DNA of 64,000 nt from Leucoraja erinacea (lineage: Eukaryota): positions 4,774,001 to 4,838,000 of the forward strand of contig NC_073399.1 in the NCBI RefSeq assembly GCF_028641065.1. The letters are read 5' to 3'. The first letter of the stretch is position 1. Each line of letters begins with the position of its first letter. Positions 1 through 63,413 of this stretch are shown piece by piece. The notes under the pieces were generated by a model. It made no database searches. It saw nothing but the letters and a program-made list of their open reading frames with translations, and had not been told where the DNA came from. A program made the translations under genes and the position numbers.

Positions 1-109
1 GGAATTCATCATACATCTGCGCCACCTGCTGGCTTAAGGACTTACCCCGAATCCCTCCAAACTCAACTTTTTCTAGTTTAAATATATCTTGGGCTGTCAC
101 CAAGAAATC
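1..109 (-). CDS. DNAH9: Axonemal dynein heavy chain (probably DNAH9), coding exon 7, truncated by window edge
   Basis: After tttaaAG acceptor reads DFLVTAQDIFKLEKVEFGGIRGKSLSQQVAQMYDEF; phase 0 continues exon 6; resembles the DHC N1 region. Confidence 0.85.
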
Positions 110-549
110 CTTTAAAAAAAAACAACAAAGGACAAACGCAGTTGAAATTGCCGCATCTGCTTTACAGTTAGTTGTGAAGGCTCAATATTAGAGCTGATTT
201 ATAATGATCACCTTGGTAAATGTCTCCAATGCACATATATAAAGAGAAGAAATCTTGCCAATTAAGAGAGAAGTGAACACATTTGTGTTTGGTGTATTAA
301 AACTGTGAGCTTTTAACAAAGATTAGGCTCTTACTGAATAAGCTACCCTGTCACCTTTGTCCCATATAATTTTGATCTGTTCATTGCAGGTACAATGTCC
401 CTGGTAAACTGAATGAAGGGTTCATGATCCATGCTGCATCAGAAGGCTAAAAGAAATGAGAGATAAAACATTTGTGATTTCACAGAAGATATGAAATATA
501 AAGAAAACAGGGGGACAGAGGTCTAAGAGATCAGAAATTAATCTTGAGT

Positions 550-686
550 CTTCTTCGTCTTGCGTATGGTGTGCACAGCCTAAGGTCGTAGACACCAAAA
601 CACGACATCTCTTTGTTTGTGCACGTCGGGGTGATTGCATTAGTCGAAACAGGGTGGACCACGTGAAGGTCGCAGTTTCCAACCCC
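550..686 (-). mobile_element. Short non-autonomous retroposon with 5' HDV-like ribozyme and GAA tail (copy 1)
   Basis: TSD aatcttgagt (540-549) / aatctcgagt (687-696); homologous to 7889-8037. Confidence 0.85.
633..686 (-). ncRNA. Minimal HDV/CPEB3-like self-cleaving ribozyme candidate (some mismatches)
   Basis: GGGGUUG GA AACUGCG ACC UUCACGU GGU CCACCCU GU UUCGA CUAA UGCAAUC; G1-U wobble at the 5' end. Confidence 0.65.
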
Positions 687-2534
687 AATCTCGAGTGACG
701 AAGGGAGTAAACTCTTGGGCGGAGCACATCCCCCGGATGAATGAAGTGCAACGACGCACATTTGGAGCAAGGGAATCCAAACATGTTGCTTCAAGCAAGT
801 GTTTCTGTTCAGGTTTACAGATCAAAATAAATTAACATCGATTTTACTGATACAAGATGAAAGTAAGCTTGTACTTCTTTTCTGAAAAGATATTGCCCTT
901 GAGAACAAGTTCCCAAGTTATCTGAAGGATTCCAGAACTTGATAATTCCTTGATATATCCAATTATTAAGGATAAAGTTGCTAATTAGCTGCTTTTTTAA
1001 TAATTGAAGTGCAACTGCAGGCTCCTGGACTTTATATCATTGCCCAAGGACATTCATGGAATTATAGACTAACAAGGGTACAGAGAGTACATTTATCCCG
1101 TCATGCTTACGCAGATCTTTGGAACTGTTTTGTATTTTTGCTCTTTACTTACTTACTCTTTCTTCAAAACCGTATACTTGTTTAAGTTTTTCACCAATTA
1201 GATTTTAGATCTTATCGTTGGACCTGCTATTATCAGCTTATTAAGAATTGTGCTCCTATTCACAACAATTCTATGTGCAAGAGAATGGTTTCTCATCTTA
1301 GATCTCAGAATAGGCAGCAGAAGAGTTGGGCTGAGATAGGAGGATTCATTGGAGAGAGGAGAGATTGTAGATCATTGGAGGCTTGGTGAATATATCACTG
1401 CAAGAGTGCATGAGATCAGGAACCCAGCAGTCGTGAGGAGAGTGGATGGGAAGACTGCATCAGGTAAGTTAGTACAACAGTGGGGAATAAGCAAAACAAG
1501 TGGACTGGATCCAGCAGAAAAATTAAAATGCATTTACCCTCACCAACAGTCTCACTTTTCTTCAGTCTATAACTTTACCCAAGCCCAGGCAATCAATCTT
1601 TTTTTTAAAAAATAGATTAGGAGCAGCAAATGTCATTTTTATTTTTATTTTCAGAAGACAACGTTAATTCCTGTTTATATGAGAAGCACATCCTTTGTCG
1701 TCTACCCCATAATTATAAATGTGTCTCACGACACAAGCTCAAGTGCAACTCTATTATTCAACCAAAGGAGCAAATGGAGCCCACCAATAATTGCAGAGTT
1801 ATATCTCTTCATAATGCCACTACAAAAGAATACAACAGAACTTCAGTAGCATTTCCTAATAAAAAGTGACCTCAAAGATGACTTCATCACAAATGGTGAA
1901 GCACCCAATGGAAAAGTGTGTTGATACAGTGTTTATATGGTTATATGGTTATACTGCAGGTGCCATCTAGGAGTTGGAATCATCCATATAATAAACATTA
2001 ATTTTCTGGATTTTAACTTAATTACTTTCAAGAATTTATAGGAACATTTACCAGAGCTCTCGAGATTACAAATAAATAACAAACCACTTAGCTCTGCAGA
2101 AAGAATGGGCTGATGCCAATGACCGTCAGCTTTCTGTACTTTATCTTCCAAGTATTTCATTACCTCCAATCACTGACTTCATTAAACAGTTCTACATCAT
2201 TGTCATTAATTTTCTTGCACCATGAACATTCTGAAATGCATGTTAGGAGCATCCACACAGCACAACTTTAACCACAGACTCTTAAAGCTTACTAGAAAAA
2301 TAAAAGTCCTCAATGCATTAATAAGATAAATGAGGGGAAAAAATAACAGTGGTTTTCTGCACAAGCTATCTGCATCGTTAACTAATGCCATTAACTCAAA
2401 TGCTCCGACAAGTTTGATTTAAAAAAATTACAAGAAACTCGATATCATTAACGTATTTTGCAAAGATGGTTCCTGAAAAGAAAACTAAGGATACGAGATT
2501 CATTATATGTTATTACCGAAAGTGATCATCTTAC

Positions 2535-2768
2535 CTCAATCTGCTCAAGTCTCTTGAGGTGACAGTTCATTCGGGCAAAGATGAGCAGCGAATTAAAGTC
2601 CCACTCTCGCACTGTCTCATCCTCCTTGTAATAGCTCCTCAAATTTTCACGCTTTTCTTCAAAAATTTGCTTGAAAAAACAGAGGATGCCGGCGGCTTCC
2701 CGCACCTTGCTCAAGTTTTCGTCCACCTCACCCTTCAGGATGTCCTCCGGGTTGACATAAACACGTGC
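2535..2768 (-). CDS. DNAH9: DNAH9-like coding exon 6 (234 bp)
   Basis: ttgcAG|GCA...GAG|GTaaga; ARVYVNPEDILKGEVDE...WDFNSLLIFARMNCHLKRLEQIE. Confidence 0.88.
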
Positions 2769-7888: not shown

Positions 7889-7942
7889 GGGGTGGGAGAT
7901 TGCAACCTTCACGTGGTCCGCCCCGTTTCGACGAATGTAATC
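7889..7942 (+). ncRNA. Minimal HDV/CPEB3-like self-cleaving ribozyme candidate (fully paired)
   Basis: P1 7889-95/7918-24, P2 7898-904/7936-42, P3 ACC/GGU, L3 UUCACGU, J4/2 CGAA with putative catalytic C7932. Confidence 0.8.
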
Positions 7943-8037
7943 AACCCGGCATGTACAATCAAATAAGATCAAAAAGACCAAGTTGGCCTACAACTTTAGG
8001 CTGTGCACGTCATACGCAAGAAGAAGAAGAAGAAGAA
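7889..8037 (+). mobile_element. Short non-autonomous retroposon with 5' HDV-like ribozyme and (GAA)n tail (copy 2)
   Basis: Perfect 12-bp TSD gaaacaagccct (7877-7888 / 8038-8049); ends CATACGC(AAG)n. Confidence 0.88.
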
Positions 8038-8098
8038 GAAACAAGCCCTATGGCCCAACTTCCCCACATCGACCCTAGTGAGGGCCCTGTACAGGGAT

Positions 8099-55080: not shown

Positions 55081-55387
55081 GTACACAAAAATGCTGGAGA
55101 AACTCAGCGGGTGCAGCAGCATCTATGGAGCGAAGGAAATAGGCAACGTTTCAGGCCGAAACCCTTCCGGGTTTCGGCCCGAAACGTTGCCTATTTCCCG
55201 GGTTTCGGCCCGAAACGTTGCCTATTTCCTTCCGGGTTTCGGCCCGAAACGTTGCCTATTTCCTTCCGGGTTTCGGCCTGAAACGTTGCCTATTTCCTTC
55301 GCTCCAATAGATGCTGCTGCACCCGCTGAGTTTTCTCCAGCATTTTTGTGTACCTTCGATTTTCCAGCATCTGCAGCTCCTTCTTAT
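55081..55387. mobile_element. Penelope-derived foldback element with internal tandem amplification
   Basis: Flanked by atctctgttg repeats; four tandem gggtttcggcccgaaacgttgcctatttcc units. Confidence 0.85.
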
Positions 55388-59599: not shown

Positions 59600-59929
59600 T
59601 GAGAAGGAACTCCAGATGCTGGAAAATCGAAGGTAGACAAAAATGCTGAAGAATCTCAACGGGCGCAGCAGCATCTATGGAGCGAAGGAAATAGGCAACG
59701 TTTCGGCACGAAACGTTGCCTATTTCCTTCGCTCCATAGATGCTGCTGCACCCGCTGAGTCTCTCCAGCATTTTTGTCTACTTTCGATTTTCTAGCATCT
59801 GCAGTTTTTTCTTAAACATAAATAAATGCAGTTTTATTTGGTCTGAAAGTCGTCCAACGAAACGTTGCCTATTTCCTTCGCTCCATAGATGCTGCTGCAC
59901 CCGCTGAGTCTCTCCAGCATTTTTGTGTA
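59600..59929. mobile_element. Penelope-derived three-armed foldback insertion inside a CR1 tail
   Basis: Flanked by ctatccatgYacctgt repeats; long inverted arms. Confidence 0.8.
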
Positions 59930-63227: not shown

Positions 63228-63413
63228 GGTTACACAAAAAAGCTGGAGAAACTCAGCGGGTGCAGCAGCATCTATGGAGCGAAGGAAATAGGCAACGTTT
63301 CGGCCCGAAACGTTGCCTATTTCCTTCGCTCCATAGATGCTGCTGCACCCGCTGAGTTTCTCCAGCTTTTTTGTGTAACCTTCGATTCTCTAGCATCTGC
63401 AGTTCCCTCTTAA
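63228..63413. mobile_element. Penelope-derived perfect palindrome insertion
   Basis: 14-bp TSD atgctgataatgca (63214-27 / 63414-27); about 76-bp arms centred on 63304. Confidence 0.9.

What the first reader, a model, noticed from the sequence alone, without database searches (positions are those of the whole stretch)
550..686. Second ribozyme retroposon copy, sense within a DNAH9 intron, with structure-compatible divergence
Seen: an independent insertion (10-bp TSD, one mismatch) that also begins exactly at G1. P3, L3 and GUUUCGAC are identical to the other copy while the middle of the element has diverged strongly. Several differences keep the fold: G1-U wobble instead of G-C, U-A instead of U-G in P1, G-C instead of G-U in P2, and J4/2 CUAA (as in antigenomic HDV) instead of CGAA. 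One P1 pair and two P2 pairs are broken. It lies sense in intron 6 of the dynein pre-mRNA. Inference: residual activity could cut the nascent transcript, similar to the intronic CPEB3 ribozyme.
Basis: partly seen in the sequence, partly recalled or inferred. Interest (0 to 1): 0.7.

Follow-up and report, generated by a model that had tools for sequence, protein, structure and literature searches.

The report
Worn ribozyme retroposon in dynein intron
This 137-base insert in an intron of a cilia-motor gene is one worn copy of an abundant jumping element whose first 54 bases are predicted to fold into a self-cutting RNA, but this copy's own mutations break three pairs of that predicted fold, so it likely no longer cuts the gene's transcript.

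Summary
The insert is real: 550-686 (minus strand), a 10-bp target duplication with one mismatch, sense in intron 6 of a DNAH9-like gene. It is the first 96 bases of a Vingi-like LINE fused to that LINE's last ~40 bases. The head fits a minimal 54-nt HDV/CPEB3-type fold, supported by compensatory changes between sister LINE heads. The 'structure-compatible divergence' does not hold. Two of the four cited differences are private mutations of the other copy, and two are fixed subfamily differences. This copy's own four head mutations all hit stems: three break pairs and one weakens a pair, and a misfold is predicted. The cut site lies only 576 nt before the 3' splice site, against 9,931 nt to the next exon in CPEB3. 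Verdict: a neutrally decaying, likely dead or very slow copy; cleavage was not assayed. The interest lies in the family: sister LINEs carry heads scoring up to 64.9 bits on the mammalian CPEB3 model. The scan reported this family and the CPEB3 link before, at other places in this genome.

The parts
550..686 (-). 137-bp non-autonomous retroposon (subfamily A): LINE 5' end fused to LINE 3' tail
633..686 (-). 54-nt HDV/CPEB3-type head (predicted ribozyme; predicted cut between 687 and 686). P1 686-680/657-651, P2 677-671/639-633, P3 670-668/660-658, L3 667-661, G37 at 650, P4 reduced to 5 nt (648-644), catalytic-position C44 at 643
671..681 (-). the four private head mutations: G6U (681, breaks P1 6-31), G10A (677, breaks P2 10-54), U12C (675, breaks P2 12-52), A16G (671, A-U to G-U)
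591..686 (-). part derived from the 5' end of the Vingi-like LINE (85 of 96 identical to LINE copy L152)
550..591 (-). part derived from the LINE's 3' end (last codons, short 3' UTR, GAA-repeat tail; 31 of 35 identical to LINE copy L093); one base of microhomology at the fusion point
687..696 (-). upstream copy of the 10-bp target-site duplication
540..549 (-). downstream copy of the 10-bp target-site duplication (one mismatch)
110..2534 (-). intron 6 of the DNAH9-like gene (GT at 2534, AG at 110)
2535..2768 (-). exon 6 of the DNAH9-like gene (matches human DNAH9 residues 372-449)
1..109 (-). exon 7 (continues beyond the window start)
7889..8039 (+). the other copy (subfamily B), antisense in intron 1 of the same gene, all 17 stem pairs kept, 12-bp target duplication

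Best explanation
This is an old, neutrally decaying copy of an internally deleted Vingi-like LINE whose inherited 54-nt head is predicted to be a minimal HDV-type self-cleaving ribozyme, and in this copy the ribozyme is likely dead or too slow to affect DNAH9. How it works. (1) Shown: a ~2.8-3.2 kb LINE in this genome (endonuclease + reverse transcriptase + C-terminal zinc finger) begins with the same 96 bases and ends with the same tail. (2) Inferred: a deletion fused the two ends into a 137-nt template. (3) Inferred: in master copies the head cuts just before G1, freeing the RNA from a host read-through transcript. (4) Inferred from the target duplication and GAA tail: the LINE protein recognises the tail and inserts the copy by target-primed reverse transcription. 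(5) Shown: after insertion this copy gained 11 substitutions, 4 in stems, none compensated, like its siblings. Selection on the fold acts on masters at the time of jumping, not on inserted copies.
For: LINE copies L152, L134, L148, L145 start with the head and continue into an endonuclease frame; 152 places carry the tail behind a zinc-finger frame, control 0; L134 is full length with its own target duplication. Between this family's majority head and sister LINE heads, 8 of 17 pairs (L068) and 10 of 17 pairs (L067) change on both sides and stay paired (read). In copies sampled by a motif outside the ribozyme, non-CpG stem sites change at 0.046 vs body 0.050 (A, 26 copies) and 0.043 vs 0.042 (B, 58 copies); pair-keeping changes 13 of 39 (10.4 expected) and 24 of 78 (25.0 expected); both-sided compensation 0 of 442 and 0 of 986. 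This copy: 3 broken pairs; P1 duplex -11.7 to -6.4, P2 -7.4 to -3.4 kcal/mol; MFE is an alternative hairpin that removes P3 (probability 0.08); only 10 of 74 ungapped sampled copies have weaker helices. No other place in the genome shares all three of the changes at 10, 12 and 16 (6 matches at up to 1 mismatch). Deep mutagenesis papers: CPEB3 P1 is mutation-sensitive, two mismatches in one helix are worse than additive (PMC9901934). Slow intronic ribozymes do not affect splicing; CPEB3 has 9,931 nt to the next exon (PMC10919898) against 576 nt here.
Against: Cleavage was not measured for master or copy. All nine core bases (U20, U21, C22, C24, G25, G37, C44, A46, A47) and P3 are intact in this copy, so slow residual cleavage is possible. 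ViennaRNA cannot fold pseudoknots or count tertiary and Mg2+ contacts. The copy scores far below Rfam cut-offs (11.9 bits vs 44; an intact B copy 20.9 vs 35), so the ribozyme call rests on a manual descriptor and covariation. Core positions change slightly less than the body (0.028-0.029 vs 0.042-0.050, not significant as tested). The insertion is retained in both other organisms laid, with 0 differences in 55 head bases (A) and at most 1 in 48 (B); about 0.8 and 1.6 are expected from the flank, so this neither shows nor excludes constraint. The Vingi label was not tested by a tree.
Confidence: 0.82

Rival explanations
1. The copy keeps slow self-cleavage that clips some nascent or excised intron-6 RNA but has no effect on DNAH9 output.
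For: Catalytic C44, the U20/G25 pair, P3 and G1-U are intact; P2 is less mutation-sensitive than P1 in CPEB3 (PMC9901934).
Against: Three broken pairs in two helices, a predicted competing hairpin 7.4 kcal/mol below the native P1+P3 sub-fold, and pairing with the upstream flank; activity falls quickly with added mutations in CPEB3 (PMC8233481; bioRxiv 2022.05.31.494017).
Confidence: 0.13
2. One reading: the copy is a CPEB3-like intronic regulator that cuts DNAH9 pre-mRNA and has been kept foldable by selection.
For: Sense orientation in an intron; L3 and core match the CPEB3 consensus; insertion shared by organisms A and B.
Against: None of its own head mutations is compensated, 3 of 4 break pairs; the cited compatible differences belong to the other copy or to subfamily history; 576 nt to the 3' splice site is about 8-13 s at mammalian elongation rates; the more intact copy in this gene lies antisense.
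Confidence: 0.03
3. The head's main job in masters is an internal Pol II promoter that starts at +1 (as Pr77 does in L1Tc), and exact G1 starts come from initiation, with the fold vestigial in this P4-less branch.
For: Pr77 is both promoter and ribozyme in the sister Ingi/L1Tc clade (PMC3383444); P4 is reduced to 5 nt, and bases 37-44 could form a competing UUCG hairpin that holds C44 (sequence); starts at G1 do not tell cleavage from initiation.
Against: All 17 stem pairs and the core are perfect in both subfamily majorities, and sister heads covary at 8-10 of 17 pairs; minimal HDV-like ribozymes lacking P4 are active (PMC10879173; PMC6326823). The two roles are not exclusive.
Confidence: 0.1

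Closest known systems
NARTc / RIME (non-autonomous derivatives of L1Tc / ingi) with the L1TcRz HDV-like ribozyme (PMC3383444, passages)
   Same: 5' end and 3' tail of a LINE joined, no ORF, HDV-like head whose cut site is the element's +1
   Different: vertebrate host; 137 nt vs 263 nt; 54-nt head without a real P4 vs 77 nt; partner LINE shows no RNase H; activity untested here
Bipartite non-autonomous LINEs of RTE, Ingi, Vingi and R2 clades (Kojima 2018, PMC5786205, passages)
   Same: internal-deletion structure keeping the LINE's extreme 5' and 3' ends
   Different: [quoted passage not shown]
Mammalian CPEB3 ribozyme (Rfam RF00622; PMC10919898, PMC8233481)
   Same: L3 sequence, G37-U38, 7-bp P1 with G1-U, same numbering of core; sense in an intron
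   Different: P4 hairpin missing; different stem sequences; this copy has 3 broken pairs and no sign of constraint; 576 nt vs 9,931 nt to the next exon; one of thousands of mobile copies rather than one conserved locus
Minimal HDV-like / theta ribozymes (PMC10879173, passages)
   Same: P4 essentially absent, C at the first J4/2 position
   Different: those are in phages and metagenomes, beside tRNAs; this one heads a vertebrate retroposon

Membership tests
HDV-like ribozyme (this copy) | 7-bp P1 starting at G1 with G1-Y | tested here: not met
   6 of 7 pairs; U6-C31 mismatch. Subfamily majority has 7 of 7
HDV-like ribozyme (this copy) | P2 pseudoknot helix | tested here: not met
   5 of 7 pairs, one of them weakened to G-U. 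Majority has 7 of 7
HDV-like ribozyme (this copy) | 3-bp P3 and L3 with U20, C24, G25 | tested here: met
   identical to majority; feature list from PMC6326823. Predicted P3 probability drops to 0.08 through a competing hairpin
HDV-like ribozyme (this copy) | P1.1 pairing (C22-G37, plus U-U as in CPEB3) | tested here: met
   C22, G37, U21, U38 present; U-U pair in CPEB3 described in PMC9901934
HDV-like ribozyme (this copy) | catalytic C first in J4/2 | tested here: met
   C44 present; CUAA departs from the CRRA descriptor but aligns to the same letters in the RF02682 consensus
HDV-like ribozyme (this copy) | self-cleavage 5' of G1 | not testable with these tools
   needs an in vitro assay or end-specific RNA sequencing
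HDV-like ribozyme (family master) | covariation of stems between independent lineages | tested here: met
   8 of 17 and 10 of 17 pairs changed on both sides, none broken, majority A vs L068 and L067; lineages are related, so these count as few independent events
Rfam RF00622 CPEB3 ribozyme | score of 35 bits or more, P4 hairpin | tested here: not met
   this copy: no RF00622 match at E<=10; intact B copy 20.9 bits. Sister LINE heads do pass, 51-65 bits
Bipartite non-autonomous LINE derivative | extreme 5' end of a LINE in the same genome | tested here: met
   85 of 96 identical to L152; majority 92 of 96
Bipartite non-autonomous LINE derivative | 3' tail shared with the same LINE, microsatellite end, target duplication | tested here: met
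   31 of 35 identical to L093; GAA tail; 10-bp duplication
Bipartite non-autonomous LINE derivative | amplified as a unit | tested here: met
   41 exact matches to the subfamily-A fusion point (control 8), 3,363 to the B-type one (control 0)
Vingi clade (partner LINE) | single compact ORF with AP endonuclease and reverse transcriptase | tested here: met
   frames in L152/L134/L091; intact relatives of 1,000-1,039 aa carry PF03372/PF14529 + PF00078
Vingi clade (partner LINE) | no RNase H domain | tested here: met
   no RNase H Pfam hit in the two L091 frames from RT to stop, nor in 3 of 3 relatives scanned; feature from PMC13708176
Vingi clade (partner LINE) | groups with Vingi in an RT tree | not tested
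   no named Vingi protein was returned by any tool; the label comes from domain layout and earlier scan notes

The most novel reading that the evidence does not exclude
Vingi-like LINEs of vertebrates carry HDV-type ribozyme heads; this element is a 54-nt, P4-less branch of them, and the mammalian CPEB3 ribozyme is a domesticated head of a sister LINE. Sister heads in this genome score 51-65 bits on the CPEB3 model, one matches 36 of the first 39 consensus bases, and they sit on endonuclease frames or zinc-finger tails. About a quarter of sampled full-length copies (19 of 84) keep a perfect head, so the genome would hold hundreds to thousands of ready-made intronic cutters: a natural test bed for how a CPEB3-like intronic ribozyme is purged, silenced or adopted. 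This particular copy would be a silenced example (chance that it regulates DNAH9 about 0.03).
Probability: 0.55. Interest if true: 0.72.

Novelty: new member of a known kind. Interest (0 to 1): 0.36.

Why it matters
For this copy: little. It shows how comparing two copies without a subfamily majority makes ordinary decay look like structural conservation. For the family: it would add Vingi to the LINE clades with 5' ribozymes, give a vertebrate minimal HDV-type ribozyme in thousands of natural variants, and point to a mobile-element origin for the mammalian CPEB3 ribozyme. I found no paper reporting this in 8 literature searches, but Repbase and Dfam could not be searched and two key papers were not held.

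Tried and rejected
RTE partner: my first guess from the GAA tail (PMC6007223 abstract only); dropped when the partner LINE showed a C-terminal zinc finger and an Ingi/Vingi-like layout. A sub-lineage sharing this copy's mutations: best other copy is 90% identical, and no other place has all three changes at 10, 12, 16. Upstream flank 687-830 as another repeat: single match in the genome (that search skips very common words). Rfam over the whole window: no ribozyme match at E<=1. MAFFT alignment of heads misaligned the P4 region and was not used; pairs were read with a fixed descriptor, where L082 failed to parse and L072 and L081 were mis-anchored. RNA: no RNA holder listed; two raw RNA runs (6% and 25% read) gave no read on exon 7 or on unique intron sequence, only partial reads of other family copies, so they say nothing on ends at 686/687. 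L127's head turned out to be a separate short copy, not the LINE's 5' end. Genome-wide orientation bias in introns: not run, no gene annotation on hand; no further copy was found in 50 kb of the same gene (L061-L065). Paralog check on the second beta-dynein of C23 failed on a stop codon; the C2 paralog scores lower to DNAH9 than this gene (65 vs 80 bits). Ruminski 2011 and Kojima 2011 were not held.

Full report
Observation. On the minus strand the element runs from G1 at 686 to the end of a GAA tail at 550. A 10-bp duplication with one mismatch flanks it at 687-696 and 540-549, ending exactly at G1. Its only relative in the window is 7889-8030 on the plus strand, 75% identical. The host gene is a beta-type axonemal dynein on the minus strand: DHC_N1 matches exon by exon. 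Exons 2, 5 and 6 match human DNAH9 better than DNAH17 (55 vs 43, 80 vs 66, 67 vs 25 bits); exon 1 matches DNAH17 better (69 vs 48). The paralog on C2 scores 65 bits to DNAH9 on the exon where this gene scores 80. DNAH11 did not appear among the PDB hits, so 'DNAH9' is the best label, not a tree result. Counting coding exons (about 19280-18910, 7768-7560, 6710-6550, 5651-5520, 4382-4155, 2768-2535), the element is sense in intron 6 (2534-110), 1,848 nt after the donor and 576 nt before the acceptor. The other copy is antisense in intron 1. That the host is a cartilaginous fish is recalled from its repeat types and from earlier scan notes; I did not test it.

Family. The own genome (2.19 Gb) gave 2,494 and 2,150 candidates for the two copies, 40 scored each. 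The best hits form two subfamilies. A, this copy's, is small: 41 exact matches to a 16-base fusion-point motif, control 8; 13 of the 29 A copies hold that motif exactly, so about 90 copies. The B type has 3,363 exact matches to a 21-base motif, control 0, a lower bound. In samples picked by these motifs, which lie outside the head, 26 of 35 A and 58 of 69 B copies reach G1. I fetched 39 of the 41 A places and the first 70 of 3,363 B places in genome order, and dropped 4 and 1 near-duplicates. A complete 5' end is expected for so short a template, so this fixes where the RNA began, not how that end was made.

Origin. A pattern joining the tail to a zinc-finger motif found 152 places, control 0. 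They end a frame with reverse transcriptase and a C-terminal zinc finger. Two walks upstream reached copies L152, L134, L148 and L145 that begin with the same head and run into an AP-endonuclease frame. L134 is full length, about 2.8 kb, with its own target duplication. This copy is 85 of 96 identical to the L152 head and 31 of 35 to the L093 tail; the A majority gives 92 and 33. So subfamily A is an exact internal deletion of this LINE, with one base of microhomology. Intact relatives are 1,000-1,039 aa proteins with endonuclease and RT and no RNase H hit (14 hits among 367 candidates; 3 scanned). That fits Vingi as described in PMC13708176 (passages). The name came to me from earlier scan notes and was not tested by a tree.

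The head. Both majorities fit a 54-nt HDV-type descriptor with all 17 stem pairs: P1 7 bp with G1-U, J1/2 2 nt, P2 7 bp, P3 3 bp, a 7-nt L3, G37-U38, 5 nt in place of P4, and C44 opening J4/2. Rfam gives only weak support: 11.9 bits to RF02682 for this copy, 17.2 for the other copy, 20.9 to RF00622 for an intact B copy, all below cut-off. The stronger support is comparative. RF00622 finds 55 places in this genome among 59 scored, 48 at or over the cut-off. Of the 20 fetched, most are heads of a sister LINE or its truncations. Against the A majority, L068 changes 8 of 17 pairs on both sides and L067 10 of 17, with none broken (read). Core positions follow PMC6326823 (passages); P4-less HDV-like ribozymes are active (PMC10879173, passages). 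Cleavage is inferred, not shown.

Test of 'structure-compatible divergence'. Against the majorities, U36 and C50 are the normal state in both subfamilies; C36 and U50 are private to the 7889 copy. A32/G32, CUAA/CGAA and the different middle are subfamily differences, so they describe two masters, not this copy. This copy has 11 private substitutions (8%). The four in the head are G6U, G10A, U12C (each breaks a pair) and A16G (A-U to G-U). Stems are 34 of 54 positions, so 4 of 4 in stems is not itself unusual (p 0.16); there is simply no sparing of stems. No other place in the genome has all three changes at 10, 12, 16 (6 matches at up to 1 mismatch, itself included). Family-wide, non-CpG stem sites change at 0.046 (A) and 0.043 (B) against 0.050 and 0.042 in the body (stem+core vs body, Fisher p 0.48 and 0.88). 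Pair-keeping changes are 13 of 39 (10.4 expected) and 24 of 78 (25.0 expected). Both-sided compensation occurs in 0 of 442 and 0 of 986 pairs. Perfect heads remain in 5 of 26 and 14 of 58 copies; three or more broken pairs occur in 4 of 26 and 7 of 58. Against my reading: core positions change a little less (0.028, 0.029), on few events.

Predicted effect. P1 duplex energy goes from -11.7 to -6.4 and P2 from -7.4 to -3.4 kcal/mol. U12C and A16G create a hairpin (12-16 with 24-28) that takes G25 and removes P3; it is the MFE at -13.6 against -6.2 for native P1+P3. With 60 nt of upstream flank, P3 probability is 0.00 and the J4/2 region pairs with the flank. Of 74 ungapped sampled copies, 10 have weaker helices and 12 an equal or larger gap to their MFE. 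These are pseudoknot-free models. In CPEB3 mutagenesis, P1 is more sensitive than P2 and two mismatches in one helix are worse than additive (PMC9901934, passages); activity falls fast with added mutations (PMC8233481; bioRxiv 2022.05.31.494017; passages).

Could it matter to DNAH9? In Cpeb3 the ribozyme half-life (2-3 min) matches 9,931 nt of transcription to the next exon, and slow intronic ribozymes have no effect on splicing (PMC10919898, passages). Here the distance is 576-744 nt, 8-13 s at the same rates; a cold-blooded host would be slower on both counts, and splicing may lag. Contigs of two other organisms or strains run from the unique flank into the element, with no empty-site joint (about 1.4% and 3.5% different). 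Organism A has 0 differences over 632-686; organism B has at most 1 over 639-686, as 7 of its 8 differences are placed in the flank. So at least three of the four damaging changes are older than the split from B and were not reverted. The numbers are too small to test constraint. The RNA runs laid gave no DNAH9 reads and are uninformative.

Comparison and novelty. The element works like NARTc/RIME (PMC3383444, passages) and belongs to the bipartite non-autonomous LINE derivatives (PMC5786205, passages). That paper lists ribozyme heads for six clades, not Vingi. 'Vingi' with 'ribozyme' returned 3 papers; I saw passages of two and the listing of the third, and none reported one. A 2026 preprint on ribozyme discovery has no occurrence of Vingi, shark or skate in its main text; its supplements are closed, and I read no supplements of other papers. 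Human DNA holds a Vingi relic, X12_LINE (PMC5753468, passages). Sister heads score 51-65 bits on the CPEB3 model, and L082 matches 36 of the first 39 consensus bases (by eye) and is followed by a zinc-finger tail like that of the partner LINE. This supports, but does not prove, a LINE origin of CPEB3. The scan noted this family and the CPEB3 link before, elsewhere in this genome (177 notes fit, 8 shown); none was near this place.

Verdict. Observation partly confirmed; the regulatory interpretation is not supported; new member of a known kind. Interest 0.36, carried by the family rather than by this copy.

Noticed in passing
window 550-760: CpG-rich patch: 15 CpG in 211 bp (o/e 1.03; window 0.42; 26 of 2,115 sliding windows reach 15). 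This copy gained 4 CpGs and lost 1 of 6, and 7 of 10 substitutions go A/T to G/C against 31% in subfamily A (p 0.012, post hoc); none of 84 sampled copies gained 4. Could reflect an unmethylated intronic element or GC-biased gene conversion.
   Followed up: partly
L107/L091, L117, L118, L139, L143, L153, L137 (LINE copies): Several 5'-truncated LINE copies carry the head (positions about 5-80) inverted and joined at the truncation point, which looks like twin-priming inversion favouring the ribozyme head.
   Followed up: partly
L067-L086: At least three sister LINE families with CPEB3-like heads of 64-74 nt, scoring 50.6-64.9 bits on RF00622; L082 matches 36 of the first 39 consensus bases.
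   Followed up: partly
window 550-686, RNA runs X12 and X15: Reads from other family copies lie mostly with the first mate on the element's strand (51 vs 9.5 and 37 vs 19 depth), which in a usual stranded library means transcripts antisense to the ribozyme; many run past G1 into varied flanks. A weak hint of sense depletion; strandedness unverified, few loci.
   Followed up: no
window 7889-8039: The other copy keeps all 17 stem pairs and the core but lies antisense to DNAH9 in intron 1, so it cannot cut that pre-mRNA.
   Followed up: yes
P0002: A protein named from the eel Synaphobranchus kaupii is 64% identical to the partner LINE's C-terminal 200 aa; close relatives in distant fishes could reflect horizontal transfer.
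   Followed up: no
sampled copies: The base just before G1 is T in 36 of 73 copies that start exactly at G1, and target duplications are mostly 10-13 bp: an insertion-site preference.
   Followed up: no
L101, L077, L067, L082: Further internally deleted forms with different breakpoints (head joined to longer 3' parts), showing that these LINEs spawn bipartite derivatives repeatedly.
   Followed up: partly
window 55139-55196, 59656-59758, 63247-63362: Long perfect hairpins formed by head-to-head copies of an abundant repeat give spurious miRNA-family matches below cut-off.
   Followed up: no
window 786-799: A short palindrome in the unique flank resembles an RFX X-box (motif recalled, not tested), next to the CpG-rich patch in a ciliary gene intron.
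   Followed up: no
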